Source: a virus
Taxonomy: Duplodnaviria; Heunggongvirae; Uroviricota; Caudoviricetes
DNA length: 64,000 nt
Direction: 5' to 3' (one strand)
Virus record (IMG/VR): IMGVR_UViG_2609459792_000007
How positions within the stretch are numbered: the stretch's first letter is position 1; each line of letters starts with the position of its first letter. A model generated the notes under the pieces. It searched no databases. It saw nothing but the letters and a program-made list of their open reading frames with translations, and was not told the DNA's origin. Made by a program: the position numbers and the translations under genes. Shown piece after piece: positions 1-40,578 of this stretch.

Positions 1-1
1 T

Positions 2-133
2 GGAATGATTCTTCATCACCAGATCGACCGCCTTAGTTGTCGTGCTTATTACGGCGGGATGTATCAGAAACATACGACGCATCACTTGCGTCACAGAGAC
101 TTGCTCAAGGGAGATGAGACGTGTCTGAGTTAG
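2..133 (+). CDS. C-terminal fragment of upstream gene, possibly tail assembly protein K-like
   Basis: Frame 2 is open from the window edge to TAG at 131-133; position immediately upstream of gpI-like and gpJ-like genes matches lambda K-I-J synteny. No motif recognised in the 44-aa fragment. Confidence 0.3.
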   Translation, partial: GMILHHQIDRLSCRAYYGGMYQKHTTHHLRHRDLLKGDETCLS

Positions 134-711
134 TTCATGTGCAGCTTGGCGGCCCTATGGCCAAACATTTTGGCCGCCACTGGCATCTAAAGGTGCGCAA
201 TACAAAACAGGCTCTGGATTTAATTGAGGCCAACAAGCCAGGGTTTAAAGCATGGATGAAGCGCAACATCAAAACCTATGACAGATACCACATCCAGATC
301 ACCAATAAACAGGGCCACAAGTGGTCTGTGGACGAGAGTGAATATCAGATGATGGGGCAGTCTGACAATATTGCAAAAATCCGCATTACCCCTGTTCCGC
401 GAGGAAGTGGTGGATCTGCTTTTGGATGGTTTCAGACGGTTGTTGGAGCAGTATTAATGGTTGCCTCGATATGGGTGCCCGCTCTTGCGCCTCTCGGTTT
501 GTCACTGATGATGGGCGGTATAGCGCAAATCATATCTCCGCAAGCCACTAACGAAAGTGTGAGGCAGGCGGATAACTCGAACTCTTATTACTTTGATGGA
601 CCTCAAAACACAACAAACCAGGGGAACCCTGTACAGCTTATCTATGGCGAGGAAATTTTAGTTGGCTCACAGGTCGTGAGTTCTTCTATCACCATCGACC
701 AGCTTATGTAA
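121..711 (+). CDS. tail assembly protein I-like
   Basis: 196 aa; C-terminal segment NSYYFDGPQNTTNQGNPVQLIYGEEILVGSQVVSS parallels lambda gpI (..NTYFSSLDNMVAQGNVLPVLYGEMRVGSRVVSQ..) as recalled; hydrophobic Gly/Ala-rich middle; directly upstream of J-like gene. Confidence 0.75.
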   Translation: MSELVHVQLGGPMAKHFGRHWHLKVRNTKQALDLIEANKPGFKAWMKRNIKTYDRYHIQITNKQGHKWSVDESEYQMMGQSDNIAKIRITPVPRGSGGSAFGWFQTVVGAVLMVASIWVPALAPLGLSLMMGGIAQIISPQATNESVRQADNSNSYYFDGPQNTTNQGNPVQLIYGEEILVGSQVVSSSITIDQLM

Positions 712-722
712 TCAAGGATTTT

Positions 723-3700
723 TTGGACATGGAACAGTTCAAGAAGAAAAAATTACCGCTTCTTATTGCCGGTGCTGGTGGCAAGAAAAGTAAAAGCTCC
801 AGCCGTACCCCGGTTGAAGCTGATGATACTGTCAATTCTCGTGCTATGGCAGCCATCCTCGACCTTCTTGGCGAGGGGGTTATCGGTGGCCTGGTAAATG
901 GCGCAAAGTCGATCTTCATCGACGATTTACCGATCTTGAATGAAGATGGCTCTTCCAACTTCAGCGGTATTACATGGGATTTTCGTGACGGCTCACAAGA
1001 CCAGACGCCAATGGCTGGTTTTGATTTTGTTGAAACGCCTAAGTCCGTAAATATTCAGCTTAAAAAAACACACGACGTTACGGTTTCAATCGATAACGAT
1101 GAAGCTGATCGCGTTCGTGTCATCATGAAATTCCCCTCTTTACGTAGCGTTGATAAAAGCTCTGGCGATACAAATGGCACTACGGTGAAGTACAAATTCC
1201 AGATCGCCAACGGAGACGCAACATTTTCTGATGTAGTGGCAGAAGGTGAGAAAAGCGTTGATATCACGCTAACGGCAAAGAAAACAGGCGTGTATTACCG
1301 TAGCTATGAGCTGAAACTACCTAAGCCTGGTCGTGCATACAAGGTTAGGGTGATTCGTCTTACAGATGATAACAGTAGCCAGTACCTCTACAACGACACA
1401 TGGGTTGATTCCATAGGTGAGATTGTCGACACGCCAATGAACTACCCTAACTCTGCTCTTGTTGGCTTGAAGGTCAATTCAGAGCAGTTTGGTAGCACAA
1501 TGCCTTCCCGTTCGTATTTGGTGCGCGGTATCAAAATCCGAGTACCGTCAAACTACAACGAATACACCAATACTTATGTCGGCGTATGGGACGGTACTTT
1601 TAAGCTGTTGTCTTCTTCAAACCCTGCGTGGATTCTCTACGATTTGCTTACCAATACTCGGTATGGTCTTGGGCAATTTGTGTCGGAATCCATGATTGAC
1701 CTCGGCCAGCTCTACCAGATTGGTCGATATTGTGACGAAGAGGTCGATGATGGCTTTGGGGGTAAAGAGAAACGCTTTGCAATCAATACGCAGATCACCA
1801 GTCGACAAGACGCATACCGATTAATTCAGGATATTGCCGGTGCATTCCGCGGCATGGTGTTTTGGGCTGGTGGCATGGTTAACATCATGCAGGATAGCCC
1901 ATCAGATCCGGTAATGATGTTTACCAACTCCAACGTCAAAGATGGACTGTTTACCTATAAAGGTTCTGCGCGTAAAGATCGCCCATCCGTTGCGCTCGTA
2001 ACCTACAACAACAAGGAGGACGGTTATAAGCAAAATATCGAGTACGTTGAAGATCAGGACGCAATGCGCCGTTATGGTGAGCGTAAAACAGAAGTCGTAG
2101 CATTTGGATGTACAAGCCGAGGCCAGGCTCACCGAGTTGGTTTGTGGCTTTTGTATACCGCCAGAATGGAGTCGGATGTAATTACATTTACTGCCGGCTT
2201 AGACGCCTCATTTCTGATGCCCGGTGAAACCGTTCTGATTCAGAACAAATATCGTGCAGGTAAACGTAACTCCGGTCGAATTGTGGAGTTTACCAAAAAC
2301 AGCATCACTCTCGATGCGCCTGTGTCGTTAGCTAAAAGCGGCAGCTTTATTCGGATATTGAATCAGGAAGGCAAAATCGTTGAACGTGATGTTCTTGAAA
2401 CTGGCGAAAACATAACAAAGGTTACGTTTTCAAAAGCTCTGTCGTCAGCGGAAACGCCTGTTTTGAACGGTGTCTGGACAATTACAGAACCAGATCTCGA
2501 ACCTATGCGCGTTCGCATCGTTAACATCGCGCAGGGGGAAACGCCGGGTAGCTTTGACATCACCGCTGTTGAGAACAATCCGTCTAAATATGAGGCAATC
2601 GACAATGGTGCAACGCTTATCCCGCAGAATACGACGGTATTGGACCCGACTTACTCTAAGCCATCTAATTTGCAAATCACTGAAGGGACTTATCTCTCAA
2701 GCCCGGGCAACCTGTCAGTAAAACTGACTGCAACATGGGAAGGAAAATCTCCAGAGTATTGGATCAGTTGGCGACGTTCTGATGAAAACAATGTATCGAA
2801 CTGGCAATCGGCGCGTGTAACCGAAGAGCAATACGAAATCGTTAATGTCGCGGAGAATGGACGCTACGACTTCCAACTGTATGCGGTTTCATTCAACGGT
2901 AAAAAAACAGAGATTATCAGTACCGTTTATCAGGTGTTGGGCACAATGACACCGCCGGATGCCCCAACGTCATTAACGGCCGTTGGAGACTATCGTAATG
3001 TGATACTGAATTGGGTTAATCCAGATTCGGTAGACCTTGATCACATTAATGTTTACGCATCCCAGACCAACAATCTGGATACGGCGAAACTGATCGCAGA
3101 GTCTGCAAGCACCACCTTTACACATGCTGGTCTTGGGGATAGCGAAACGTGGTATTACTGGGTTCGAGCATCGAACAAGCGAGGTATGTTAAGCCCTCCG
3201 AACTCAAACTTGGGTACAGAGGCGACAACTCGCGATGTACTGTCGTTCCTGGCTGGCAAAATTACATCTTCCGAGCTTGGTCAGGCTCTGCTTGAGGACA
3301 TCAACAGTAAAGCCTCTCAAGAAGCAGTTGACGAGTTAAATGAGCATATCAACCAGAGCGTCGAATCTTTGGAGGGGTCGGTAAACGACGTTAAGGAAGA
3401 TATAGCTGAATTAGATAAGCAGTTCAGCGATAACCTCGCGGGTTTTGAAATAAAATTCAACGAGCGTAGCGATGCTTTGGAGAACGCACAAACCGAGCTT
3501 AAAGGTGAGGTTTCGGCAACGATCGACAAGGTCAATGAAGCGTTTGAAAAAATTGATGCTACTGATGCTGCAATTGTTGAAATCGAAAACACCGTATCTG
3601 AACACGATAAAGCTCTCGCTAATACAGTCGAGGCAATAAAGGCTGCAAGAGACGAAGCGGCGGCTCTTATTGCTAAGGAAAGCGAGGCTCGTGTAGAAGG

Positions 3701-5453
3701 TGATGCCGCAAACGCTAAACAACTGGAAGTGTTGCAGTCGACGGTAGAGGAAAGTTCCGCAGCTGTTGAAGAAATGAAAAAGACGGTTGCAGAGGTCGAT
3801 CGTGCCAGTGCAGAACTGACTACGAACATTGAGGCGTTAGCCAAAACAAATATTGACCTGGCTCTTCGTCAAGATGAAGACCAGCACAAGCAGATGGTCA
3901 ATAACGCGAAGATCGCAACAACACAGAAAACCTTTGCTGATGATATGTCTGCAATGGCCACGAAGGTTGAGGAAATTCGCGTAGAAATTGGCGAAGACAT
4001 TAAGGCCAGTATTCTGGAAGAGTCCACCGCTCGTGCCGATGGCGATGAAGCGTTGGCAAAGCGTGTCACTCAGCTGCAATCTAAGTTTGAAGGAGATATC
4101 AGCGCGGCGATTAGTACAGAACAGGAGGCTCGTACATCTGCCGATGAAGCTTTGACGAAACAAATAACTCAGCTTGAGTCGAAAGTAAGCAACGATATTG
4201 TCGCAGCCATTAAGGAAGAGCAAGAAGCCCGAGCAACGGAAGATTCGGCTCTGGCAAGCCAGATCACCCAACTTCAGGCAAAAGTTGATGATGATATTTC
4301 TGCTGCAATACGCAGTGAGCAGGAGGCGCGTGCGAGCGGAGACTCTGCGTTAGCTAAACAAATAAACCAGCTTCAAGCAAAGGTTGACGGTGATATATCC
4401 GCCGCCATCACTCAGGAGCAGGAGGCCAGAGCAAGTGCTGACGAGGCGCTCTCACGAGAAATTAACAGCCTGCGGGCGCAGACCGGAACTGACATTGCCG
4501 CAGCCGTTGCTGTAGAGACAAAGGCAAGGACTGACGCCGATAGTGCATTGTCCAGCCAGATTACATCTCTTACAGCAAAAGCTAATGATCTCGAGGCGTC
4601 TCTTGCCAAAGAAACAACGGCTCGTGCAGATGGCGATACCGCTTTAACAAAAGAGGTTTCAAGTTTAAAAGCACAGACTGCGAAAGATATTAGTGCGGCC
4701 GTTGCAGTGGAAACGCAGGCTCGAACTGATGCTGACTCGGCGCTATCGTCTCAGATCACCAAGCTGACCTCTCAATACAAAGAGGATATTAAAGCGGCTG
4801 TAGCAACCGAAACGAAAACGCGTACAGAGCAAGATGCGGCACTGGCGACTCAAATCACAAACTTAGAGTCTCAAACAGCAGCCAACATTTCTGCGGCGGT
4901 CACAACTGAAACGACAGCGAGAACGCAGGCAGATAATGCACTAAGTGGGCGAATCGATACTCTGAAAGCAGAGGTGGATGGAAATACCGCGACAATTCAA
5001 CAGCAGGCAACAGCCATTGCTGATACCAACAAAAAAGTCTCAACCGCGTGGACGTTGAAAATGGAGACTTCAACGAGCGGAGGGCAGAAGTATGTTGCCG
5101 GTATTGCGCTTGGTATCGACACCACCGGTCTTTCTCAGTTTTTGGTGCAGGCGGACAGATTTGGTTTGGTCAACTCTGTTAACGGGAAGATCACCACGCC
5201 ATTTGTTATCGAAAACAGTATCGCCTATATGAATGGTGCGTATATCAAGGATGGCACAATCACCAATGCAAAAGTAGGCGATCTGCAATCTACCAATTTT
5301 GTTAGCGGTAGATCTGGATGGCGGTTCGGCAAAAATGGAACGCTTGAGATCAACGGTAATAGCGGCGGCAATGGGCGACTGGTCATAAATGGTCAGCGGA
5401 TTGACGTTTATGACGATAACAACGTCCTACGAGTAAGAATTGGCCTTCTGTGA
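723..5453 (+). CDS. host specificity protein J-like central tail fibre
   Basis: 1576 aa; N-terminal third carries lambda gpJ-like motifs (NPAWILYDLLTNTRYGLG, FRGMVFWAGGMV); central Ala/Glu-rich tandem repeat stalk; follows I-like gene. Confidence 0.85.
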   Translation: MDMEQFKKKKLPLLIAGAGGKKSKSSSRTPVEADDTVNSRAMAAILDLLGEGVIGGLVNGAKSIFIDDLPILNEDGSSNFSGITWDFRDGSQDQTPMAGFDFVETPKSVNIQLKKTHDVTVSIDNDEADRVRVIMKFPSLRSVDKSSGDTNGTTVKYKFQIANGDATFSDVVAEGEKSVDITLTAKKTGVYYRSYELKLPKPGRAYKVRVIRLTDDNSSQYLYNDTWVDSIGEIVDTPMNYPNSALVGLKVNSEQFGSTMPSRSYLVRGIKIRVPSNYNEYTNTYVGVWDGTFKLLSSSNPAWILYDLLTNTRYGLGQFVSESMIDLGQLYQIGRYCDEEVDDGFGGKEKRFAINTQITSRQDAYRLIQDIAGAFRGMVFWAGGMVNIMQDSPSDPVMMFTNSNVKDGLFTYKGSARKDRPSVALVTYNNKEDGYKQNIEYVEDQDAMRRYGERKTEVVAFGCTSRGQAHRVGLWLLYTARMESDVITFTAGLDASFLMPGETVLIQNKYRAGKRNSGRIVEFTKNSITLDAPVSLAKSGSFIRILNQEGKIVERDVLETGENITKVTFSKALSSAETPVLNGVWTITEPDLEPMRVRIVNIAQGETPGSFDITAVENNPSKYEAIDNGATLIPQNTTVLDPTYSKPSNLQITEGTYLSSPGNLSVKLTATWEGKSPEYWISWRRSDENNVSNWQSARVTEEQYEIVNVAENGRYDFQLYAVSFNGKKTEIISTVYQVLGTMTPPDAPTSLTAVGDYRNVILNWVNPDSVDLDHINVYASQTNNLDTAKLIAESASTTFTHAGLGDSETWYYWVRASNKRGMLSPPNSNLGTEATTRDVLSFLAGKITSSELGQALLEDINSKASQEAVDELNEHINQSVESLEGSVNDVKEDIAELDKQFSDNLAGFEIKFNERSDALENAQTELKGEVSATIDKVNEAFEKIDATDAAIVEIENTVSEHDKALANTVEAIKAARDEAAALIAKESEARVEGDAANAKQLEVLQSTVEESSAAVEEMKKTVAEVDRASAELTTNIEALAKTNIDLALRQDEDQHKQMVNNAKIATTQKTFADDMSAMATKVEEIRVEIGEDIKASILEESTARADGDEALAKRVTQLQSKFEGDISAAISTEQEARTSADEALTKQITQLESKVSNDIVAAIKEEQEARATEDSALASQITQLQAKVDDDISAAIRSEQEARASGDSALAKQINQLQAKVDGDISAAITQEQEARASADEALSREINSLRAQTGTDIAAAVAVETKARTDADSALSSQITSLTAKANDLEASLAKETTARADGDTALTKEVSSLKAQTAKDISAAVAVETQARTDADSALSSQITKLTSQYKEDIKAAVATETKTRTEQDAALATQITNLESQTAANISAAVTTETTARTQADNALSGRIDTLKAEVDGNTATIQQQATAIADTNKKVSTAWTLKMETSTSGGQKYVAGIALGIDTTGLSQFLVQADRFGLVNSVNGKITTPFVIENSIAYMNGAYIKDGTITNAKVGDLQSTNFVSGRSGWRFGKNGTLEINGNSGGNGRLVINGQRIDVYDDNNVLRVRIGLL
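4000..4990 (+). repeat. tandem coding repeats of about 93 bp (about 31 aa) inside the J-like gene
   Basis: About 12-14 consecutive units of the form DISAAI..EQEAR..AD.AL..QIT.L.AKV in the translation; predicted coiled coil. Boundaries approximate. Confidence 0.7.
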
Positions 5454-5546
5454 TGGTAGAAAAAAATATTTATATCGGTAAAAATAAGTAGGTACTTACT
5501 TAATGGTGGGCAAGGATAGCCCACCAAATCAAGGAGCATATTCAAC

Positions 5547-8500
5547 ATGTGGTACAGGGAAGGTACTATCACATTTACACAGGGTAGTAATACTCTGGTT
5601 GGGGTTGGGACAGCCTGGAACGTAACAGCTAATGGTGTGTTGCCGGGGATGATCGTCATTGGCCCCGACAATAAGCTGTATGAGATCAAGCGCGTAACAA
5701 GCGATACGAACATTGTTCTCTCAGAACCTTATACCGGTGAAACTCAGTCTGAAGTTCCGTGCCGAATCATTACTACCTATGAAGGCGACTTAACACAGTT
5801 TAGCGCGCGCTTTACCGCGCTAATGTCGCGTATGTCGGCTGATTCCAAGTCCATGCGTAGTTGGTTGACTGCTCTGGATGAGGTGACAATCGAGCGTGAA
5901 GACGGTACAGAAGTGACCGTTAAGCCGCTGATGCAGATCGTCAACGAGCACAACGAAAACGTTGAGTGGTATAAAAATAACACTGACGCGATTGATGCCG
6001 CTGGTGACAAAGCTCGTGAGGCGGCGGCCAGTGCTGCCGCAGCAGCAGAAAGCGCCAATACCGCTGGAGAAAAAGCATCTCAAGCGTCTCAAAGTGCATC
6101 CGCTGCGGCATCCTCACAAAGTGCCGCAAGTGCGAGTGCAACTGCTGCGAAAAAATCTGAAACGAACGCAGAATCAGCATATCTATCGGCAGCAGAATCA
6201 GCGTCTGTAGCGTCGACCAAAGCATCGGAGGCAGCAACATCTGCGTCCAGTGCCTCTGCATCTAAGGATGCAGCCAAAGCATCAGAGACTAACGCTTCAT
6301 CGAGTGCAAACGCGGCTGCATCATTTGCAACAGAAGCTGAAAATTCGTCTAAGGCAGCAAAAGCGTCAGAGACAAACGCAAAAGCATCTGAAACGGCAGC
6401 CGGGCAGAGTGCATCGTCTGCAAACAGTTCGAAATCTGCGGCAGAAGCGTCAGCAAGCGCAGCCTCAGCAAGTGCGGATAGTGCTTCATCAAGTGCAACT
6501 GCGGCAGGAAAATCTGCGGAAAGCGCGTCGTCATCAGCGACAACAGCTACCGCAAAAGCGACTGAGGCGACGAATCAGGCTACAGCTGCTAAAAATTCAG
6601 CATCGGCAGCAAAATCCTCTGAAACAAATGCAAAGGCTTCTGAAGATAATGCCGCTTCCTCTAAAGAGGCAGCTGCTGAATCTGCAAGTTCTGCGTCTGC
6701 ATCAGCCACCTCGGCATCTGCTTCAAAAGATGAGGCGACCAAGCAGGCATCAGCTGCGAAGGGGAGTGCTTCAACGGCATCCACGAAAGCAACAGAGGCG
6801 GCAGGTAGTGCGACGGCTGCATCTCAGAGCAAAGCTGCTGCTGAATCCGCTGCGACCCGTGCAGAAGCTGCCGCTGATCGTGCTGAAGAGATCGCCGGTG
6901 CAGTTGCGATGGAAGACGCAAGCCTTACCACCAAAGGTGTTGTGAAACTTAGCAGTGCTGTCGATAGCACCAGTGAATCGCTGGCCGCAACGCCAAAGGC
7001 AGTTAAAGCAGTCAATGACAATGCGAACAGCAGGGTGCCATCTAACCGAAAAATTAACGGGAAAGCACTGACTGCGGATATCACATTAACGCCGAAAGAT
7101 ATTGGTACTTTAAATTCAATAACGATGTCTTTCTCTGGCGGGGCCGGGTGGTTCAAACTGGCTACTGTTACAATGCCACAAGCGAGTTCCATCGTTTACA
7201 TCGCATTGATTGGTGGCGCTGGTTACAACGTCGGCTCCCCACATCAGGCAGGCATTTCAGAACTGGTTCTACGAGCAGGCAATGGAAACCCCAAAGGGAT
7301 TACAGGTGCTTTGTGGAAGCGTACAGCTGTCGGATTAACGAATTTCGCCTGGATCAACACATCCGGCGATACATATGATATTTACGTTGAAATTGGCAAT
7401 TATGCGACGAGTGTAAATATCCATTGGGATTGTACTGCAAATGCGTCAGTTTCTATTTATACATCGCCAACATATTCAGCGAGTAAGCCTTCCAGCGTTA
7501 CCGATGGTGTTGTTTATACGTTGTATAGCACACATCAGAAACCGACGCCGTTAGATATTGGAGCACTGCCAACAACCGGAGGAACAGTTTCAGGTCCGTT
7601 GTCTGTTACTGGTGGGATCACCGGAACATTAAATGGTAATGCAAGTACAGCAACGAAATTGCAGACGGCAAGATCTATCGGTGGAGTTGTTTTCGACGGT
7701 TCTGCAAATATTAACCTTCCAGGTGTAAACACTACGGGTAATCAGAACACCACTGGTAATGCTGCAACTGCTACAAAACTTCAGACGGCACGCACAATTG
7801 GCGGGGTAGCATTTGATGGCAGTGTCAATATCGACCTGCCGGGCGTGAATAAAGCAGGCAATCAGAGCACTACCGGCAATGCTGCAACCGCTACAAAACT
7901 ACAGACAGCGCGTACAATCAACGGTGTTAAGTTTGATGGTTCTGCGGACATAACGCTGACTCCTGCGAACCTTGACGTATACAGCAAAAGCGAAATAGAC
8001 AATAAAAAAGGGATGAGAAAATACACTTTTTCAGCGCCTGCAAATGCAGTAAGCGGTAAGTGGTATCCTATAGTCTTTCGCCGATCTGGAGGCAGTACCG
8101 ATGAATTAGCCTCACGAGTTGTGATAACTACTTATTCCTCAGCTGGCGGATACGCCATGAATAATTGTGAATTTAATGGGTTTGTTATGCCTGGCGGTTG
8201 GTCTGATCGCGGTTCATATGCGGCTGGTTTTTTCTCAATATATTCTACTGCTGAGCGAGCTATACACTCGATTATTTCAAGTGTGAAAGATGACGATTTG
8301 TGTAGTGTATTTTACGTTGAAGCCAGAGCATTCCCTATCAAGATATTTGCTGAGGAGGGCTTGAACGTAATTGTTCCAACGGCTGATTATGCAGTTGGTC
8401 AAACCACTTATAAGTGGGGGGCAACTGATCCTTTATCAGAAAGTACGAATGCACAGATAATTTTGGACTTTAAAAATGGACGAGGTTATTACTGTTCACA

Positions 8501-9704
8501 TCCATTTATTTCAAGTCTTTCAGGAAATGCTGCTACAGCAACGAAATTGCAGACTGCAAGAACTATCGGCGGCGTGGCCTTCGATGGATCTGCGAACATA
8601 AATTTGCCTGGTGTAAACACGGCAGGTAATCAGAATACAACGGGCAACGCGGCTACTGCTACGAAGTTGCAAACAGCGAGAAACATCAATGGTGTTAAGT
8701 TTGATGGCTCAGGCGATATCAACATTAATACATTGGTATCTCGTGGCCGAGTTACGGCGTTAAGCGGCTCTACTCAAGGCACTGCTGGCATTCAAATGTA
8801 CGAGGCGTACAACAATAGTTATCCGACCACGTATGGCAACGTATTGCACATGAAAGGTGCGAGTGCTGCTGGTGAGGGCGAGTTGCTTATTGGCTGGAGT
8901 GGTACGAGCGGTGCACATGCGCCGGTTTTCATTCGCTCCCGAAGAGATACCACTGATGCGGCATGGTCAGCGTGGGCGCAGGTATATACCGCTAAGGATT
9001 CAATCCCTGGTGTGAATACAACCGGTAATCAGAACACTACTGGTAATGCCGCAACCGCCACAAAATTGCAGACAGCAAGGAAAATTGCTGGTGTGGCGTT
9101 TGATGGCTCTGCCGATATTACTTTGACTGCGGCTAACCTTAATGCTTACACGAAAACAGAGGTAACAAACCTTCTAAGTTCCTATGCAAGCAGATCATCA
9201 CTGACAGGCTATAGTGGCAACCTGGATATTATTGCTGAAACACTGGTTGTCAAATCAGGCGGTAGTGGAGGGTTTGCTATATGGGATATTGGCACAACTA
9301 CTAGCGGTGCCAATATGTACATTGATCCAAACCCAGGTATCAATACAGTTTGGCGTTCAACATCTTCAAGGCGCTATAAAAAGGATATTGAAACATTACA
9401 AGATCGATATGCTGATGAACTTTTGTCATTAAGACCTGTTTGGTATCGTTCAATTTGTCGAGGTGACCGAAAGGATTGGGGGTATTACGGCCTTATTGCT
9501 GAAGAGGTTGGTGAGATTGCCCCGCAATATGTCCATTGGCGTGAACCAACAAATAATGATTCTCCAGAAGATATTTCCTCCAATGGTATGGTCGCTGAAG
9601 GAGTGATGTATGAACGTTTGGTTGTACCACTCATTCATCATATTCAGCAATTGACCAAAAGGGTTGAGGAGCTTGAAAAGAAGTTAAATTCACCTAAAGA
9701 ATAA
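5547..9704 (+). CDS. side tail fibre protein (Stf-like N-terminus, repeat shaft, C-terminal intramolecular chaperone-like domain)
   Basis: 1385 aa; Ala/Ser-rich region ending ..GSASTASTKATEAAGSA..SQSKAAAESAA..KGVVKLSSAVDSTSESLAATPKAVKAV resembles lambda Stf N-terminus as recalled; five or more copies of NAATATKLQTAR..GV.FDGS..I.LPGVNT.GNQNTTG; C-terminal about 130 aa resemble the self-cleaving chaperone domains of tailspikes and L-shaped fibres. Confidence 0.8.
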   Translation: MWYREGTITFTQGSNTLVGVGTAWNVTANGVLPGMIVIGPDNKLYEIKRVTSDTNIVLSEPYTGETQSEVPCRIITTYEGDLTQFSARFTALMSRMSADSKSMRSWLTALDEVTIEREDGTEVTVKPLMQIVNEHNENVEWYKNNTDAIDAAGDKAREAAASAAAAAESANTAGEKASQASQSASAAASSQSAASASATAAKKSETNAESAYLSAAESASVASTKASEAATSASSASASKDAAKASETNASSSANAAASFATEAENSSKAAKASETNAKASETAAGQSASSANSSKSAAEASASAASASADSASSSATAAGKSAESASSSATTATAKATEATNQATAAKNSASAAKSSETNAKASEDNAASSKEAAAESASSASASATSASASKDEATKQASAAKGSASTASTKATEAAGSATAASQSKAAAESAATRAEAAADRAEEIAGAVAMEDASLTTKGVVKLSSAVDSTSESLAATPKAVKAVNDNANSRVPSNRKINGKALTADITLTPKDIGTLNSITMSFSGGAGWFKLATVTMPQASSIVYIALIGGAGYNVGSPHQAGISELVLRAGNGNPKGITGALWKRTAVGLTNFAWINTSGDTYDIYVEIGNYATSVNIHWDCTANASVSIYTSPTYSASKPSSVTDGVVYTLYSTHQKPTPLDIGALPTTGGTVSGPLSVTGGITGTLNGNASTATKLQTARSIGGVVFDGSANINLPGVNTTGNQNTTGNAATATKLQTARTIGGVAFDGSVNIDLPGVNKAGNQSTTGNAATATKLQTARTINGVKFDGSADITLTPANLDVYSKSEIDNKKGMRKYTFSAPANAVSGKWYPIVFRRSGGSTDELASRVVITTYSSAGGYAMNNCEFNGFVMPGGWSDRGSYAAGFFSIYSTAERAIHSIISSVKDDDLCSVFYVEARAFPIKIFAEEGLNVIVPTADYAVGQTTYKWGATDPLSESTNAQIILDFKNGRGYYCSHPFISSLSGNAATATKLQTARTIGGVAFDGSANINLPGVNTAGNQNTTGNAATATKLQTARNINGVKFDGSGDININTLVSRGRVTALSGSTQGTAGIQMYEAYNNSYPTTYGNVLHMKGASAAGEGELLIGWSGTSGAHAPVFIRSRRDTTDAAWSAWAQVYTAKDSIPGVNTTGNQNTTGNAATATKLQTARKIAGVAFDGSADITLTAANLNAYTKTEVTNLLSSYASRSSLTGYSGNLDIIAETLVVKSGGSGGFAIWDIGTTTSGANMYIDPNPGINTVWRSTSSRRYKKDIETLQDRYADELLSLRPVWYRSICRGDRKDWGYYGLIAEEVGEIAPQYVHWREPTNNDSPEDISSNGMVAEGVMYERLVVPLIHHIQQLTKRVEELEKKLNSPKE

Positions 9705-9716
9705 ACAACTTCAATC

Positions 9717-9739
9717 GGGGCTGGAACTAAACCAGCCCC
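9717..9739 (+). terminator. hairpin downstream of tail fibre gene
   Basis: GGGGCTGG-AACTAAA-CCAGCCCC; weak U-tract follows. Confidence 0.4.
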
Positions 9740-9764
9740 TGCTTAAAAGTATAAGGATATATTT

Positions 9765-10019
9765 ATGAGCTATGGTGCACAGGTTTGGTCGCCATCAAGA
9801 CAGGAGATGGTCGATGCGTTGGCCCCTGTTTATTACCTCGATTATTTTACTCCCTCTGGTTCTGGAAGTAGAACATATGAGGTTGAGGCGGGATTGGGAA
9901 TCGACTATTACATAATGGACGTAACCAATGGGAAATACACAAGTCTTACGGTTTCTGGAAATACCATTTCATGGTCTGGAGCTAGTGGCAATTTAAACAT
10001 ATTGGTTTTTCAAAAATAA
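9765..10019 (+). CDS. hypothetical protein
   Basis: 84-aa ORF after the tail fibre gene; AT-rich; no motif recognised. Confidence 0.45.
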   Translation: MSYGAQVWSPSRQEMVDALAPVYYLDYFTPSGSGSRTYEVEAGLGIDYYIMDVTNGKYTSLTVSGNTISWSGASGNLNILVFQK

Positions 10020-10627
10020 TGTACGGAAGCAAGATATATCGATCTGACGGGAAGGTCTGGATGTCTCCTTCTTTGTCTCCTATCGTTTTTCAGAGAAAGC
10101 AGGTTGTTTCTTTGTCTGGCGGGACAGAGTTTAACACCCAAATATCTCCAGATCGTTCACCGATGATTTTTGTTGCCTATTCGAAAGCTGTTTCATTAAT
10201 AGCCAACAGAATAGTGCGTAACAACCAGGTGATTTACAGTTTCGGAGGTCAGGGTAGCGACTCTAGTGCCACGATATACGTATTTTCGAAAGGTATAGCC
10301 AAAAAAGAAACTTGGGGCATGAGTTTTTTCAATGCGCGAGGAGAGGAGATCTATAATACGGCAAATATCCCACTTTCATTTACCTTTCTTAATAATACGG
10401 AGTGGAACAGTTCTGGAGGGCATGTTTTTGATTACCCGCCAGCGATAATCCCAACATATGCAAATGTGTTCGCGGTTCCAGTACCGGGCGGGGCCATGAC
10501 AATGGTTTATGGATATGCGGCATATGGAAATACTGTTAGTTCCATATTCGTAAACCAACTTAATGGCGGCCATAGTTTTAGCGTAAATGGCAGAGTACCG
10601 GTAATAAATAGAAATCTGTATAACTGA
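10019..10627 (+). CDS. hypothetical protein
   Basis: 202-aa ORF, start overlaps previous stop; no motif recognised. Confidence 0.5.
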   Translation: MYGSKIYRSDGKVWMSPSLSPIVFQRKQVVSLSGGTEFNTQISPDRSPMIFVAYSKAVSLIANRIVRNNQVIYSFGGQGSDSSATIYVFSKGIAKKETWGMSFFNARGEEIYNTANIPLSFTFLNNTEWNSSGGHVFDYPPAIIPTYANVFAVPVPGGAMTMVYGYAAYGNTVSSIFVNQLNGGHSFSVNGRVPVINRNLYN

Positions 10628-10637
10628 TGAGTAAACG

Positions 10638-10868
10638 ATGAAAAGATTATTTCTAACAATAGCTGTTGTTCTCTCTCTTACTGGCTGTCAGAAATTGCCG
10701 ACACCCATATGTTATGGTGAGGCTATCATTGGTGGACAGGAGACAGTCATACCTATATATGCTGTTAAAAAGGTTAACGGCTATACCTTATACAAAGCGG
10801 GTAGCATCTATAACTGGCGATGGGTTGGAGTAGGTGCTTTCTCATCAGTGCGTTGCAATGCTGAATGA
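10638..10868 (+). CDS. small lipoprotein
   Basis: 76 aa; N-terminus MKRLFLTIAVVLSLTGCQ is a signal peptide with lipobox L-T-G-C. Confidence 0.55.
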   Translation: MKRLFLTIAVVLSLTGCQKLPTPICYGEAIIGGQETVIPIYAVKKVNGYTLYKAGSIYNWRWVGVGAFSSVRCNAE

Positions 10869-10937
10869 TAAGTAAGTACACACCTACAACAAAAGGGTGA
10901 AATGTGATATAAATCCGCCATCCCGATTTGACTTTTC

Positions 10938-11273
10938 ATGGAGGAAAACATGTCGAACGAGATGGCGGGCGTTACAACAGAGCAAGTTGAGCGTATTGCC
11001 GCGATCGTTGCTCGGGAGGTTGTTGGCAAATTAGGTAAAGAGCTACGTGAAGAAATTGGCCAGGAGGTCAATGATCAGCTGAAAACCTACTTTGGTGATA
11101 TGACCCCGGCGCAACATAGTATTCAACACTCCAATCTGGACAAACTCCTTAACCGGTTAGATTCCATCTCCAGTGGGTTCTTTGGCGGCATTGTTTCTAA
11201 AATAACGTCGTTCATTATTACCGCACTGCTTTTGGGGTTAGCCGCGTATGGCGTAAAAAATGGACTGCAATAA
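10938..11273 (+). CDS. hypothetical membrane protein (holin candidate by position)
   Basis: 111 aa with one C-terminal hydrophobic helix (ITSFIITALLLGLAAYGV); sits at the head of the putative lysis cassette. Confidence 0.4.
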   Translation: MEENMSNEMAGVTTEQVERIAAIVAREVVGKLGKELREEIGQEVNDQLKTYFGDMTPAQHSIQHSNLDKLLNRLDSISSGFFGGIVSKITSFIITALLLGLAAYGVKNGLQ

Positions 11274-11286
11274 CAGGAGATCAAGG

Positions 11287-11979
11287 ATGAAGACTCCGAG
11301 AGGCATTCGTAATAATAACCCCGGTAATCTTGATAAAGGATCACCGTGGCAAGGTCTGGTTGCGAATCCAGACGAACCGCGTTTTTGCACGTTTAAAGAC
11401 CCTGTTTGGGGGATTCGTGCGCTGGCGGTGACTCTAATTACCTACCACGACAAACGTCGCGCAAAAGACGGCTCAAGTATCGATACCATTCGTGAAGTTA
11501 TTGAACGTTGGGCACCGCCGAATGAAAACAACACTGACGCCTACATTAATGAGGTGTCTAAAGCCGTTGGTGTAACCGCAGACATGATCATCGATCTGCA
11601 TGATTACGACATCCTTCGACCTTTGGTTGAGGCAATCATTCGCCACGAGAATGGCCGGGGTCCGCTAAAAACGCTGAACACCTGGTATGCGGCAGAAGTT
11701 ATTGAGGAAGGTCTGCGTCGAGCTGGCGTTGTTAAGCCGGTGAAAACCGTGAAGGCTGTTCCTGTAACTAAAGAAACAGCAGGCGCAACTGTTACAGCAG
11801 GTATTGGTCTGGCGCAACTGGCCGATGTTATGCCGCAGGTTTCCGCTGCTATGGATAAGGCACAAGGCCATATCTCTAGCGGGGATACAGTACGCATCAT
11901 CTTCGGTATTGCCACTATTGTTGTGGCCGGATTCATTGCCTGGTCGCAGGTAAGAAAACACCAGAAAGGGATGGTCTAA
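11287..11979 (+). CDS. hypothetical protein, endolysin candidate by position only
   Basis: ORF-track start is 11260; ATG at 11287 (MKTPRGIRNNNPGN..) has an AGGAG RBS and avoids overlap. C-terminal hydrophobic helix. Lies between holin-like gene and Rz/Rz1-like pair; catalytic family not recognised. Confidence 0.4.
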   Translation: MKTPRGIRNNNPGNLDKGSPWQGLVANPDEPRFCTFKDPVWGIRALAVTLITYHDKRRAKDGSSIDTIREVIERWAPPNENNTDAYINEVSKAVGVTADMIIDLHDYDILRPLVEAIIRHENGRGPLKTLNTWYAAEVIEEGLRRAGVVKPVKTVKAVPVTKETAGATVTAGIGLAQLADVMPQVSAAMDKAQGHISSGDTVRIIFGIATIVVAGFIAWSQVRKHQKGMV

Positions 11980-11980
11980 T

Positions 11981-12232
11981 ATGCTAGGCAGCCTGATGAC
12001 AAAGCTAAAAGTTGCTTTGATTACGCTGGCTGCCGTTCTTTTCGTTCTGGTCGGCGCTTACACGATGGGCGGGAATGCAGCACGACGAGCAATGGAAGAG
12101 AAGGCAAAACAGGAAGACAGAAAACGACTTCAAAGCACAGTGGACGTCAAAAATGAAACACTTGATGAGTTACGGCGCAAGGATGCTTCTTCTGTTCATC
12201 ATGAGTTGCACAATAAGTGGTTGCGTGATTAA
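11981..12232 (+). CDS. Rz-like i-spanin (short)
   Basis: 83 aa; N-terminal TM helix (LKVALITLAAVLFVLVGAY) then charged helical region; overlaps an out-of-frame lipoprotein ORF. Confidence 0.45.
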   Translation: MLGSLMTKLKVALITLAAVLFVLVGAYTMGGNAARRAMEEKAKQEDRKRLQSTVDVKNETLDELRRKDASSVHHELHNKWLRD

Positions 12233-12383
12233 GCCTCAACCCGCTGGTGTGCTTTTCTGCGATGCGGCTACACCGCTATACATCAGCCGTGATGATCTCA
12301 TGACCGAAGAGACTGAAAGAGAGGTGCTTTTTCACAATATGATAGGGGAGCGATTGTGTGGATGGGGCAGAAAAGTACCATAA
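12153..12383 (+). CDS. Rz1-like o-spanin lipoprotein
   Basis: Internal Met of the 12075..12383 ORF gives MKHLMSYGARMLLLFIMSCTISGC (signal peptide plus lipobox I-S-G-C); starts inside and extends beyond the Rz-like gene in another frame. Confidence 0.5.
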   Translation: MKHLMSYGARMLLLFIMSCTISGCVIKPQPAGVLFCDAATPLYISRDDLMTEETEREVLFHNMIGERLCGWGRKVP

Positions 12384-12560
12384 CAGAAGAGGAGTTTTCT
12401 AACATAAAATTTGCATATTATTAGAGCACAAGGTAGATTTGGCACATGGATGTCAAGTAAATCATCCCTTGCATTAATGCTGCGACGCATACTCGTAGCC
12501 TCTAAACCCTGACAAGGGTCGCCGCTATGACATTAAGTTAATACCGGCTAAGGTGGACAC

Positions 12561-12944
12561 ATGCTGAACGAAAAACGTTCTATACAAACAATTCGCGATT
12601 GCACGAGTGTTATCGCAACTCATGTGCTGAATAAGCGCAAACTTGAGGTGCGTAAACTTAACAACGATGCGACTGCGCCAAAAGACACTCGCTTCATCGT
12701 AACTTTCAAAGACGATGTTGAGAATGCTGGTGCCAGTGTAAAACCGTTGGCTGAAGCGATTTTCCTGAACGATCGTGTTCGTTTCATTGTGAAGCCAGCA
12801 AAACAATACCCTGAATTAGCACGGTTTAGTGACCAATTCTCTGAAATTATTGAGAGTGCAATTCGCCGCTTTCTTAATACTCATGGTAGCATTGTCAGCA
12901 ATACAACTGCTGATGGTACTGCTCTAAGATGGCACCTACACTAG
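12561..12944 (+). CDS. hypothetical protein
   Basis: 127-aa ORF; no motif recognised. Confidence 0.45.
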   Translation: MLNEKRSIQTIRDCTSVIATHVLNKRKLEVRKLNNDATAPKDTRFIVTFKDDVENAGASVKPLAEAIFLNDRVRFIVKPAKQYPELARFSDQFSEIIESAIRRFLNTHGSIVSNTTADGTALRWHLH

Positions 12945-13681
12945 AACGCACATACTCTAAAAATCTTTATGAGTTTCCTCACCGTGGGGAAACTCGCGTT
13001 TCACGTTTTGGCTACCTCATCAACGAAGCATCGCTTTTCAAAATATCTGAAATAACCATTATCGAGCCTGATGATGATATCTGTCTGTATATCCTGATGG
13101 AGAAAGTTGGAGCACGAGATCAGGGTGAACTGATGGACTTCATTCTGGACAGAGGCGAAGATGGAATGTCTGATTCGGACATTATTCAAGCAATTCTGCG
13201 TTCCGACATGCTCGATCAGAGCAGAAACACGATAGCAGGCAGAATTGCATTGCGTGAATACACATTCATCGAGGATGGGGTAGAGATTGACTGCTATCAG
13301 ATTGCAGGTGTTGAAACAGAAAGAGCAATAAGGCAAAGGGGACTGTGCAACCTCACGTATCGCTTCCTCCTTCATTGGTACGAACATCTTGTCTGTGATT
13401 ACAATCAGACCATTCCTGGCGCAAAAATCTGGGCCGGTCCATTAATGCGAACAGGTGATGTAAGAATTTACAACGCAAAAACTGAGACGTTCGAGGATGT
13501 GTTAGGCGAATATGGGATGGGAAAAGAAACCGGCTTTTTGCCGTGGAACAGAGGATTGTTACTTGATCCAGAATTAAGCTCTTGGTTTCCAAATAAGGTG
13601 CAAGTTAACGTTGAGAAATTTATCGTACTTATCATCTCCCGCAAAACAAGAACCCCAGTTGGTTTATATCTAAAAGATTAA
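12929..13681 (+). CDS. hypothetical protein
   Basis: 250-aa ORF; no motif recognised. Confidence 0.5.
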   Translation: MAPTLERTYSKNLYEFPHRGETRVSRFGYLINEASLFKISEITIIEPDDDICLYILMEKVGARDQGELMDFILDRGEDGMSDSDIIQAILRSDMLDQSRNTIAGRIALREYTFIEDGVEIDCYQIAGVETERAIRQRGLCNLTYRFLLHWYEHLVCDYNQTIPGAKIWAGPLMRTGDVRIYNAKTETFEDVLGEYGMGKETGFLPWNRGLLLDPELSSWFPNKVQVNVEKFIVLIISRKTRTPVGLYLKD

Positions 13682-37424: not shown

Positions 37425-38498
37425 ATGGCAAAAGGAAAATCCGCACTGGCACTTGCTCTGAAAAAGAAAATCGGTAGCAACGACGAAATTCAGAAAGTAA
37501 CTCATTGGATTGACACAGGCTTTCCTCCGTTAAACAAAGCTATTTCCGGTCGTTACGATGGCGGTTTCCCATGTGGTCGTATCGTAGAAGTATTCGGGCC
37601 GCCAAGCGCGGGGAAAACCTTTTTGGCAACAGCAGCAATGATCTCCGCTCAGAAACAAGATGGTCTGGCGGTATTCCTCGATCATGAGAACAGTTTTGAC
37701 GTTGGCCTGGCGGTAGCCAATGGCTTGAATGCAGATGAGGATGACGGTCAGTGGGTATACAAGCAGCCAGATACCTTCGAAGACTCTGTAGAGTTGATCG
37801 GCACAATACTTAAATTGGTACGTGATGAAGAGCTTATCCCTGAATCAGCACCTATCTGTATCGTGGCTGACTCACTTGCGTCTATGGTTCCGAACTCCAA
37901 AGCCGAGAAGTTCGAAAAGATGGCTGAAGGCACTGCTAAAGACAAAGATCAGCTAAACATGAACGACAATACGGCGCTTGCTCGTGCGACGAGCGCAAAC
38001 TTCCCCACTCTGGCTTTGTGGGCACGCAAATATAACGCCTGCATTATTTTCTTGAATCAGGTTCGCACAAAAATCGGTGTAATGTTTGGCGACCCTACGA
38101 CGTCGCCAGGCGGCGATTCACCGAAGTTTTACGCTTCTGTGCGCATCCGTCTCGGTGCATCGGTGATGAAGGATGGTAAAGAGAAGATCGGTCAGGACGT
38201 AGGCGCAGAGTGCATCAAAAACAAAGTTGCACCACCGTATGGCAAGTGCACCTGGAAATTCTACTTCGATCCTACTCGTGGCCTCGACGTTATCGAATCG
38301 CTCGTCGAGTACATGCTGGAAGAAGGATACCTGCCAAAGAACGCCAGCGGTCGAGTAGAAATTGGTGACAAGAAATACACCAAATCACAGATCGTCGAGA
38401 TGTATCGGGAGAAGCCACTAGCTGAAATCATTGCGGCTTTACAGGCAATCGACGACCGGAGATCAAAAGACAATCCCACCGAGTCAGTAGAAGAGTAA
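37425..38498 (+). CDS. RecA-like recombinase
   Basis: 357 aa; Walker A GPPSAGKTF; IVADSLASMVP and FLNQVRTKIGVMFGDPTTSPGG..KFYASVRIRL parallel bacterial RecA blocks as recalled. Confidence 0.8.
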   Translation: MAKGKSALALALKKKIGSNDEIQKVTHWIDTGFPPLNKAISGRYDGGFPCGRIVEVFGPPSAGKTFLATAAMISAQKQDGLAVFLDHENSFDVGLAVANGLNADEDDGQWVYKQPDTFEDSVELIGTILKLVRDEELIPESAPICIVADSLASMVPNSKAEKFEKMAEGTAKDKDQLNMNDNTALARATSANFPTLALWARKYNACIIFLNQVRTKIGVMFGDPTTSPGGDSPKFYASVRIRLGASVMKDGKEKIGQDVGAECIKNKVAPPYGKCTWKFYFDPTRGLDVIESLVEYMLEEGYLPKNASGRVEIGDKKYTKSQIVEMYREKPLAEIIAALQAIDDRRSKDNPTESVEE

Positions 38499-38513
38499 AC
38501 ACAAGGCGTCCAC

Positions 38514-38539
38514 AGGACGCCTTTTTTATCTCTTGAAAA
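38514..38539 (+). terminator. rho-independent terminator
   Basis: AGGCGTCC-ACAG-GGACGCCT followed by TTTTTT. Confidence 0.8.
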
Positions 38540-38590
38540 TATATAAGTACTTACTTATCATTTTCACATAACAACCACATAGGAAAACAC

Positions 38591-38791
38591 ATGATCAAAA
38601 TCTATCTATTGGCAGTAGCCACAGGCCTTTCAGTGGCTCTCATCTACGGATTACTGGTTCCGTCGCTGATTTCTGCAAAGAGTGATTTGGCCGTCATGCT
38701 TGGAGTTATTGTTGGTTTTGGCGCTCCAGTAATCGGTCTTATTGGTGGTCGTAAGTTTATTAACTCATTAATCAAAGCAAAGGGGAAATAA
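38591..38791 (+). CDS. small integral membrane protein
   Basis: 66 aa with two hydrophobic helices; immediately upstream of the SPFH lipoprotein gene. Confidence 0.5.
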   Translation: MIKIYLLAVATGLSVALIYGLLVPSLISAKSDLAVMLGVIVGFGAPVIGLIGGRKFINSLIKAKGK

Positions 38792-38794
38792 GTA

Positions 38795-39625: not shown

Positions 39626-39643
39626 CTCTCTTTAAGAAGATCA

Positions 39644-39669
39644 GGCGTCCAGTTGGACGCCGTTTTATT
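39644..39669 (+). terminator. rho-independent terminator
   Basis: GGCGTCC-AGTT-GGACGCC followed by GTTTTATT. Confidence 0.8.
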
Positions 39670-39720
39670 CTCGTTATTATCACATACAAGAAAACAATTT
39701 GTTAAAAGGTAAAGTTAATT

Positions 39721-40545: not shown

Positions 40546-40578
40546 AGAATTGTCATTTGGCTTTACGCTCGAAGCATA

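What the first reader, a model, noticed from the sequence alone, without database searches (positions are those of the whole stretch)
9765..10868. AT-rich accessory cassette with a small lipoprotein directly after the tail fibre gene
Three ORFs without recognisable motifs follow the side tail fibre gene and appear more AT-rich than the surroundings; the last is a 76-aa lipoprotein. Small lipoproteins next to receptor-binding genes can block the phage receptor after infection (Llp/Cor-like logic), so this may be a superinfection-exclusion or host-range cassette acquired horizontally.
Basis: inference. Interest (0 to 1): 0.5.

Follow-up and report, generated by a model that had tools for sequence, protein, structure and literature searches.

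The report
Phage receptor-binding and Cor exclusion cassette
The three small genes after the tail-fibre gene are a known phage module: two likely tail-tip receptor-binding proteins plus the Cor lipoprotein, which stops further phages from infecting. It sits in an E. coli SSU5-like phage-plasmid, so the finding is real but largely ordinary.

Summary
The three ORFs exist exactly as described: 9765-10019, 10019-10627 and 10638-10868.

- **The lipoprotein is Cor.** It passes NCBI's curated "phage exclusion lipoprotein Cor" model (79.5 bits, cutoff 31) and is annotated as cor in current RefSeq copies.
- **The upstream ORFs are known companions.** They are homologs of N15/phi80 gp22 and gp23, which always accompany cor. 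The same triad sits at the same place in Salmonella phage SSU5.
- **They are probably tail-tip receptor binders, not membrane proteins.** They have no signal peptide or TM segment. J's C-terminus matches that of other cassette-bearing phages. The OrfB model's best structural match is the solved Oekolampad receptor-binding protein. SSU5-like elements carry one OrfA/OrfB pair at either of two loci, and Cor occurs only with the tail-locus copy.
- **AT-richness is modest.** GC is 42.1% against 45.8% for the window, roughly the 9th-12th percentile. Synonymous codon usage is the most atypical among comparable genes.
- **The cassette is variable.** It is present in 126 of about 765 related plasmids.
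- **The receptor is unknown.** This OrfB clade is distinct from the FhuA, BtuB and Stx-phage clades.

Novelty is low.

The parts
9765..10019 (+). orfA, 84 aa: homolog of N15/phi80 gp22 (PHROG 557, mislabelled 'outer membrane protein'). Small beta-sandwich protein; proposed adaptor or co-receptor-binding subunit at the J tail tip.
   Evidence: PHROG 557 E 1.3e-24. Aligns with N15 gp22, phi80 gp22, JLBYU60 gp25, Cyrano_88 and the Stx-phage homolog. No signal peptide or TM segment. AF2 core pLDDT above 85 and all-beta. The profile aligns to the OrfB N-terminal domain (hhalign 86%, E 5e-6).
10019..10627 (+). orfB, 202 aa: homolog of N15/phi80 gp23 (PHROG 425, mislabelled 'membrane associated protein'; the 'hand-like protein' of Matusiak et al.). 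Proposed receptor-binding protein.
10638..10868 (+). cor, 76-aa precursor of a Cor-family outer-membrane lipoprotein (superinfection exclusion).
   Evidence: NCBIfam NF047972 equivalog 79.5 bits against cutoff 31. PHROG 1119 E 7.8e-30. 42-59% identical to the phi80, N15, HK-type, Stx-phage and SSU5 Cor proteins. RefSeq annotates near-identical copies (96.9-99.6% nucleotide identity) as 'cor: phage exclusion lipoprotein Cor'.
10638..10688 (+). Lipoprotein signal peptide ending in lipobox L-T-G-C (Cys17). The +2 residue is Gln, implying Lol sorting to the outer membrane.
   Evidence: Pfam LPAM_1 match to residues 1-18. Regex and alignment checks show Cys17 invariant, and Cys25 and Cys73 invariant in the mature part.
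9717..9739 (+). GC-rich 8-bp hairpin after the fibre gene stop, with no U-tract. A second stem (9741-9770) sequesters the orfA start region.
   Evidence: RNA fold of 9700-9770: -24.5 kcal/mol, z = -5.3 against shuffles. The terminator scan does not call it.
4839..5453 (+). C-terminal ~200 aa of the J-like central tail fibre (gene 723-5453). This is the proposed docking site for OrfA/OrfB.
   Evidence: 31-39% identity to the C-termini of phi80 J, N15 gp21, FritzSarasin J and JLBYU60 J, all phages with a gp22/gp23-type locus. The end is nearly invariant among SSU5-like elements.
5547..9704 (+). Side tail fibre gene (context). Its 3' end (about 9187-9704) is replaced relative to Cyrano along with the cassette.
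   Evidence: Peptidase_S74 chaperone domain at residues 1273-1329. Mosaic alignment to Cyrano and SSU5. The same triad follows a different fibre end plus a separate assembly gene in pHH12_P1.
10866..10868 (+). Right-hand recombination junction. Similarity to Cyrano and PhiR41_1, which lack the triad here, resumes at 10867, within the cor stop codon.
   Evidence: blastn boundaries.

Best explanation
The window comes from an E. coli SSU5-like phage-plasmid. The three genes are this lineage's version of the 'extended cor cassette' (N15/phi80 gp22-gp23-cor), which couples receptor recognition to receptor blockade.

Inferred: OrfA (a small beta-sandwich) and OrfB (a ~200-aa all-beta protein) are made late with the tail genes. 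They dock on the conserved C-terminal end of the J central fibre and form the terminal receptor-binding tip for an outer-membrane protein.

[quoted passage not shown] There it binds the periplasmic face of the same receptor and makes it unusable. This protects the infected or lysogenic cell from superinfection, and protects progeny from wasteful adsorption to debris.

The receptor is not established. FhuA is the precedent for Cor, but this OrfB clade is distinct from the FhuA, BtuB and Stx-phage clades.

The module is exchangeable. SSU5-like elements carry one OrfA/OrfB pair, either here with Cor or at a distal locus without Cor.
For: Cor identity:
- Curated NCBIfam equivalog passed; PHROG 1119.
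- 188 phage records with Cor homologs, including phi80 and N15.
- Invariant lipobox Cys and two further invariant Cys.
- RefSeq annotation of near-identical copies (96.9-99.6% nucleotide identity).

Triad conservation:
- Same gene order in SSU5, N15 and phi80. The same three genes are clustered next to J in JLBYU60 (cor on the opposite strand) and in FritzSarasin (Cor-like gene first).
- The literature describes this cassette and its link to receptor choice (PMC13164509; PMC8594841; bioRxiv 10.64898/2026.04.02.716166; PMC12309495).

OrfA/OrfB as tail-tip receptor binders:
- No signal peptide or TM segment.
- J's C-terminus is homologous to the J proteins of other cassette-bearing phages.
- OrfA is paralogous to the OrfB N-domain.
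- One pair per genome at either of two loci: pTLYA-2 and SSU5 have the tail locus only, Cyrano and PhiR41_1 the distal locus only. Across plasmids there are 256 records with 272 places.
- The pair occurs without Cor in about 130 plasmids, whereas Cor occurs only with the tail-locus triad (73 Escherichia records in both counts).

Host-range behaviour:
- The cassette is the divergence hotspot against SSU5: Cor 57%, OrfA 69% and OrfB 75% identity, compared with holin 96% and endolysin 94%.
- Two discrete alleles partition by host genus.

The experimental paradigm of an adjacent RBP plus exclusion lipoprotein is established for T5 and for Oekolampad/Rtp.
Against: - No experiment on this element. 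All function is inferred by homology or fold.
- The OrfB model is only moderate (pLDDT 69). The Foldseek match is not significant (E 0.085, TM 0.30), and the family profile finds no solved relative by sequence.
- The cassette is not directly downstream of J, as it is in the classical loci. It lies 4.3 kb away, behind the side fibre gene.
- In Cyrano and PhiR41_1 the pair sits among non-structural genes (methylase, RNase H, TciA/B-like, DUF4942, Ead/Ea22), an odd place for a virion gene.
- About 343 Klebsiella SSU5-like plasmids have no detectable OrfB, so the pair is not universally required.
- SSU5 itself is described, from my own recollection of the literature and not verified here, as an LPS-core-specific phage.
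- No promoter was found for cor expression in the lysogen, unlike phi80.
Confidence: 0.62

Rival explanations
1. All three proteins form one exclusion device. OrfA and OrfB are envelope-associated partners that help Cor block the receptor. [quoted passage not shown]
For: The three genes are tightly linked and translationally coupled. The PHROG names point this way. The authors of PMC13164509 assumed an exclusion-related role after finding no structural hits.
Against: - Neither protein has a signal peptide, lipobox or TM segment.
- The pair occurs without any Cor in about 130 plasmids, in Cyrano and in PhiR41_1. In Stx phages it is about 3.5 kb away from cor, next to the tail spike region.
- The top structural match is a receptor-binding protein.
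- Membrane-affinity estimates in PMC12309495 argue against membrane insertion.
Confidence: 0.1
2. OrfA and OrfB are assembly factors or structural decorations for the side tail fibre, not receptor binders. Cor is an independent moron that happens to sit next to them.
For: Here and in SSU5 the pair directly follows the fibre gene, or the fibre plus 'adhesin/assembly' gene. In an Stx phage, cor directly follows a fibre plus adhesin pair.
Against: - This fibre carries its own intramolecular S74 chaperone.
- The same triad follows different fibre ends.
- In N15 and phi80 the pair follows J and precedes the fibre.
- In Cyrano and PhiR41_1 the pair is about 55 kb from the fibre gene.
- No Pfam tail-fibre-assembly match.
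Confidence: 0.15
3. The cassette is a decaying or silent remnant with no current role in this element.
For: It is absent from most relatives. One plasmid has an IS2 inserted in orfB. No dedicated promoter was found.
Against: All three ORFs are intact and 97-100% conserved across about 70 E. coli plasmids from unrelated sources. Between the alleles, codons differing synonymously outnumber those differing non-synonymously (orfA 30 vs 26, orfB 88 vs 51). The genes are embedded in the late operon between the fibre and lysis genes.
Confidence: 0.05

Closest known systems
phi80 / N15 gene 22 - gene 23 - cor cassette (also reported in T1, HK022 and ES18)
   Same: Same three families in the same order. 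Cor is 42-43% identical, with lipobox and Cys pattern conserved. The J C-terminus is homologous.
   Different: - OrfA and OrfB are only 17-26% identical and 16-22 aa shorter, forming a separate clade.
- The cassette lies after the side fibre gene, not directly after J.
- There is no separate cor promoter or terminator: a 10-nt gap here against about 110 nt with a mapped promoter in phi80.
- FhuA use is documented for those phages and unknown here.
Salmonella phage SSU5 genes SSU5_023-025 (annotated 'Cor-like')
   Same: Orthologous and syntenic, lying between the tail fibre and the holin in the same phage-plasmid family.
   Different: - A diverged allele: 68% nucleotide identity; Cor 57%, OrfA 69%, OrfB 75% amino-acid identity, against 94-96% for the adjacent lysis proteins.
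- Associated with Salmonella, Enterobacter and Citrobacter rather than Escherichia.
- SSU5 has a separate 'tail fiber adhesin' gene before it.
Warwickvirus (e.g. FritzSarasin/Bas04) and Stx-phage / Cyrano-type OrfA-OrfB pairs
   Same: The closest non-SSU5 relatives of OrfB (21-29%) and OrfA (30-36%), with similar sizes. FritzSarasin also has a Cor-like lipoprotein.
   Different: - FritzSarasin uses BtuB (BASEL S5 table).
- The Stx-phage pair is linked in the literature to BamA.
- The Cyrano-type pair sits at a distal locus and has no Cor.
Oekolampad RBP / Rtp44 plus Rtp45 exclusion lipoprotein (LptD-targeting small siphophages)
   Same: An adjacent RBP plus periplasm-facing exclusion lipoprotein. 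The RBP is the best structural match to the OrfB model.
   Different: No detectable sequence homology. One RBP gene rather than a pair. The receptor is LptD.
T5 pb5 / Llp
   Same: The same logic: an RBP gene next to a small outer-membrane lipoprotein that inactivates the receptor (FhuA) from the periplasmic side.
   Different: Cor is not a sequence homolog of Llp. The profile hit to 8a60_B has E 0.056 and covers only the signal peptide region. pb5 is a single large protein.

Membership tests
Cor phage exclusion lipoprotein (NCBIfam NF047972 / PHROG 1119) | Full-length match to the curated family model above its cutoff | tested here: met
   79.5 bits against cutoff 31, residues 1-74 on profile positions 1-77 of 78. 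PHROG 1119 E 7.8e-30.
Cor phage exclusion lipoprotein (NCBIfam NF047972 / PHROG 1119) | Lipoprotein signal peptide with lipobox Cys, and a small (~60 aa) mature protein with conserved Cys pair | tested here: met
   LTGC at 14-17. Cys17, Cys25 and Cys73 are invariant across 7 family members.
Cor phage exclusion lipoprotein (NCBIfam NF047972 / PHROG 1119) | Linked to gp22/gp23-type genes in the tail/host-range region | tested here: met
   Immediately downstream of homologs of N15 gp22 and gp23.
Cor phage exclusion lipoprotein (NCBIfam NF047972 / PHROG 1119) | Expression excludes phages by inactivating the outer-membrane receptor (FhuA in studied cases) | not testable with these tools
   Needs expression plus adsorption and EOP assays. 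The receptor is uncertain because relatives of the module use FhuA, BtuB or BamA.
Cor phage exclusion lipoprotein (NCBIfam NF047972 / PHROG 1119) | Independent 'moron' transcription unit with its own promoter and terminator, as annotated for phi80 cor (typical of that case, not strictly defining) | tested here: not met
   10-nt gap after orfB. No sigma-70-like site in or after orfB, and no terminator before the holin gene, in contrast to phi80.
'Bona fide RBP locus' of small siphophages and lambdoids (BASEL; N15 gp22/gp23 type) | Homology of the encoded proteins to gp22/gp23-type proteins (PHROG 557 / 425) | tested here: met
   E 1.3e-24 and 5.5e-49. Alignments A1 and A2.
'Bona fide RBP locus' of small siphophages and lambdoids (BASEL; N15 gp22/gp23 type) | Located directly downstream of the gpJ homolog | tested here: not met
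   J ends at 5453. The 4.2-kb side fibre gene lies between it and the cassette. In related elements the pair can be about 55 kb away.
'Bona fide RBP locus' of small siphophages and lambdoids (BASEL; N15 gp22/gp23 type) | J protein ends in the short C-terminal domain shared by phages that use a separate RBP | tested here: met
   The last ~200 aa are 31-39% identical to the C-termini of phi80, N15, FritzSarasin and JLBYU60 J.
'Bona fide RBP locus' of small siphophages and lambdoids (BASEL; N15 gp22/gp23 type) | Hypervariable relative to flanking genes, with alleles tracking host or receptor | tested here: met
   57-75% identity against 94-96% for the adjacent lysis proteins relative to SSU5. Two discrete alleles partition by host genus.
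'Bona fide RBP locus' of small siphophages and lambdoids (BASEL; N15 gp22/gp23 type) | Protein is a virion component that binds an outer-membrane receptor | tested here: inconclusive
T5 Llp lipoprotein family | Sequence homology to Llp (PDB 8a60_B) | tested here: not met
   Cor profile against PDB: E 0.056, and only profile positions 1-40 covering the signal peptide and lipobox. The relationship is functional analogy only.
Known anti-phage defence systems (PADLOC) | Match to any PADLOC model | tested here: not met
   No hits for any of the three proteins.

The most novel reading that the evidence does not exclude
The window/SSU5 clade of OrfA/OrfB is only 17-29% (OrfB) and 21-36% (OrfA) identical to the FhuA-, BtuB- and Stx-phage-associated clades. 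It may recognise an outer-membrane receptor not yet assigned to this module, with its Cor homolog tuned to block that receptor rather than FhuA. SSU5-like phage-plasmids would then switch terminal receptor by carrying one of two alternative OrfA/OrfB pairs at two different loci, only one of which comes with an exclusion factor.
Probability: 0.3. Interest if true: 0.5.

Novelty: new member of a known kind. Interest (0 to 1): 0.3.

Why it matters
SSU5-like phage-plasmids are common in clinical Enterobacteriaceae: about 765 plasmid records share the lysis genes, and this cassette is in 68 of 5,426 complete E. coli genomes. They can carry resistance genes. Knowing which genes set their host range and exclusion helps predict their spread and their interference with therapeutic phages that use the same receptor.

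For specialists, the useful points are these:
- Independent comparative evidence that the gp22/gp23-type proteins are receptor-recognition components rather than Cor helpers.
- A fold-level link to a solved receptor-binding protein.
- The one-pair-at-either-of-two-loci pattern.
- A third clade of the pair with no assigned receptor.

None of this overturns current views.

Tried and rejected
- Pfam: only the lipobox, sub-threshold; nothing for OrfA or OrfB.
- PADLOC: no hits.
- PDB sequence searches with single proteins and with profiles gave nothing meaningful. The 'Pizza' designed-propeller hits to Cor residues 33-58 are repeat-inflated and I treat them as spurious. The enoyl-ACP reductase hit to the OrfB profile (E 0.68) is noise.
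- Cor-Llp homology was rejected at the sequence level.
- The promoter and terminator scan found fewer sites than shuffles and none that would make cor a moron.
- Tandem Repeats Finder found nothing in 1-12500.
- No paralogs of the three genes exist elsewhere in the 64-kb window.
- The word-indexed homolog search with single sequences reached only close relatives. The first profile search timed out and succeeded on retry.
- A literature search for PhiR41_1 receptor data found nothing. Wietzorrek et al. 2006 is not held and is cited only through PMC13164509.
- I initially assumed FhuA as the receptor and withdrew this after finding that the nearest non-SSU5 OrfB relative (FritzSarasin) is a BtuB phage.
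- I considered that the fibre tip and the triad move as one block, because the Cyrano comparison shows both replaced. I rejected strict linkage because the same triad follows a different fibre end in pHH12_P1.

Full report
**1. What is there**

The window is part of an E. coli SSU5-like phage-plasmid.
- Region 8800-11300 is 98-99% identical to many ~110-kb non-mobilizable E. coli plasmids, such as pTLYA-2.
- The neighbouring holin and endolysin genes match phages Cyrano, PhiR41_1 and SSU5.

The gene order is J-like central fibre (723-5453), side tail fibre (5547-9704), the three ORFs of the finding, then holin, endolysin, Rz/Rz1 and ParA.

- The orfA stop overlaps the orfB start.
- cor starts 10 nt after orfB.
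- A strong GC-rich hairpin without a U-tract follows the fibre gene.
- No promoter or terminator is predicted between orfA and the holin gene.

**2. Composition**

- Cassette GC is 0.421 against 0.458 for the window, about -1.4 SD. 8.7% of equal-sized windows are as low or lower.
- Gene-wise GC and GC3 are at the 12th percentile.
- The low-GC stretch begins around 9000, within the fibre gene.
- Synonymous codon usage (+2.6 SD) and amino-acid composition (+3.6 SD) are each the most extreme among 20 comparable units.

The 'AT-rich' observation is therefore real but weak. It would not single the region out on its own.

**3. The lipoprotein is Cor**

- It passes NCBIfam's equivalog model 'phage exclusion lipoprotein Cor' (79.5 bits, cutoff 31) and PHROG 1119.
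- tblastn finds 188 phage records with homologs. These include phi80 and N15 (42%), HK/mEp lambdoids (47%), Stx phages (58%) and SSU5 (59%).
- The lipobox Cys and two further Cys are invariant. The +2 residue is Gln.
- Current RefSeq annotates near-identical copies (96.9-99.6% nucleotide identity) as cor.
- It is not a sequence homolog of T5 Llp.

**4. The two upstream genes**

They belong to PHROG 557 and PHROG 425 and align with gp22 and gp23 of N15 and phi80. They also align with counterparts in a Dhillonvirus, a T1-like Warwickvirus, an Stx phage and Cyrano.

The triad is a described unit. PMC13164509 calls it a conserved cor locus. Citing Wietzorrek 2006, it reports the locus in T1, HK022, N15, ES18 and phi80, all FhuA-dependent. 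BASEL and a 2026 preprint show that loci of this kind track terminal receptor specificity. Matusiak et al. propose the two proteins as overlooked receptor binders.

**5. My tests of RBP against exclusion helper**

a. Neither protein has a signal peptide or TM segment. [quoted passage not shown]

b. J's last ~200 residues are homologous to those of phi80, N15, FritzSarasin and JLBYU60 J. They are nearly invariant among SSU5-like phages.

c. An AlphaFold2 model of OrfB, built on a 96-sequence alignment, has pLDDT 69 and pTM 0.74 and is all-beta.
   - Foldseek ranks the same chain first, but not significantly (E 0.085).
   - There is no sequence-level link.

e. Comparative genomics:
   - Cyrano and PhiR41_1 lack the triad at the tail locus. 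They carry an OrfA/OrfB pair at a distal locus next to a DUF4942 gene.
   - pTLYA-2 has the triad and an empty distal locus. SSU5 has a single copy.
   - Across plasmids, OrfB homologs give 272 places in 256 records.
   - Cor is found in 73 Escherichia records, the same number as carry this triad allele. The roughly 130 distal-type plasmids have none.

Having the pair without Cor argues against a Cor-helper role. 'One pair per genome' fits a structural function.

Counter-points:
- The distal locus lies among non-structural genes.
- Klebsiella SSU5-like plasmids have no detectable pair.
- The structural evidence rests on a moderate-confidence model.

**6. Variability**

- The lysis genes mark about 765 plasmids. 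The triad is detectable in 126.
- It occurs as two discrete alleles: >=95% identity in Escherichia and Shigella, and about 68% in Enterobacter, Salmonella, Citrobacter and Kluyvera.
- Against SSU5, Cor (57%), OrfA (69%) and OrfB (75%) are far more diverged than holin (96%) and endolysin (94%).
- Against Cyrano, similarity stops inside the fibre 3' end (about 9187) and resumes at 10867, at the cor stop codon.
- The same triad follows a different fibre end in pHH12_P1.
- In complete E. coli genomes the cassette is in 68 of 5,426, always on plasmids.

**7. Receptor**

I first assumed FhuA, but the module is not FhuA-only.
- FritzSarasin, the closest non-SSU5 OrfB relative, uses BtuB.
- The Stx-phage pair is tied to BamA in the literature.

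Identity matrices show three OrfB clades:
- N15, phi80 and JLBYU60;
- FritzSarasin, Cyrano and the Stx phage;
- the window plus SSU5.

Identity between clades is 17-29%. The receptor of this clade is therefore open.

**8. Verdict**

The cassette is a new, divergent member of a known and already annotated kind. Interest is low to moderate.

Noticed in passing
L006:4717-5615 (Cyrano 81933-82831); L012:6284-7185 (PhiR41_1). The corresponding site would lie about 2.4 kb beyond the window's 3' end.: SSU5-like elements that lack the tail-locus triad carry a second-type OrfA/OrfB pair, 62-66% identical to the Stx-phage pair. It sits next to a DUF4942 gene among non-structural genes and has no Cor. 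pTLYA-2, which has the triad, has this site empty.
   Followed up: partly
window 9765-10019 versus 10019-10250: OrfA looks like a distant paralog of the N-terminal ~75 residues of OrfB (hhalign 86%, E 5e-6). They share an N-terminal M-x-YG...G...P...P motif, which may be a common J-docking domain.
   Followed up: partly
window about 3300-4900 (J residues ~880-1400): J carries a long Ala/Glu/Gln-rich, coiled-coil-like run of imperfect ~30-40-aa repeats ('ISAAI..EQEAR..AD.AL..QI..L.AKV'), with strong AT skew (0.2-0.3). About 350 aa of it have no counterpart in phi80 or N15 J, and SSU5 J is 191 aa shorter. TRF finds no DNA-level tandem repeat.
   Followed up: no
window 5547-9704: The side fibre has a long Ala/Ser-rich low-complexity segment (roughly residues 150-470). 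It also has at least five copies of a ~40-aa 'GNAATATKLQTAR.I.GV.FDGS..I.L' repeat, and is mosaic relative to Cyrano and SSU5 from about 7946 onward.
   Followed up: no
window 12561-13681: Two ORFs (127 and 250 aa) lie between the spanins and parA. They occupy the place where Cyrano has a KacT-type acetyltransferase toxin-antitoxin pair on the opposite strand. This is another variable slot.
   Followed up: no
NZ_CP145681.1 around 37432-40836 (plasmid relative): An IS2-family element is inserted in orfB of an otherwise 98-99% identical cassette, leaving cor intact.
   Followed up: no
window 10638-10868 in public records: The PLSDB gene table lists no feature over cor in nearly all E. coli plasmids, while 2026 RefSeq annotates it as cor. 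This is an annotation-lag artefact, not a missing gene.
   Followed up: yes
window 9741-9770: A second predicted stem pairs the orfA start codon region, leaving the AAGGA Shine-Dalgarno sequence in the loop. It may provide translational control of orfA.
   Followed up: no
window 12075-12383: An Rz1-like ORF overlaps the 3' part of Rz in another reading frame and runs past its stop (PHROG 1275). This is a typical overlapping spanin pair, and the real start is probably internal, near the lipobox.
   Followed up: no
L009:1-2476 (Stx phage phi367) and L001:4639-10108 (SSU5): In an Stx phage, cor directly follows a 'tail fiber' plus 'tail fiber adhesin' pair. In SSU5 the same fibre plus adhesin arrangement precedes OrfA-OrfB-Cor. 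The window's Cor is closest to these two (54-57%), which hints at a shared fibre-end/Cor module history.
   Followed up: no
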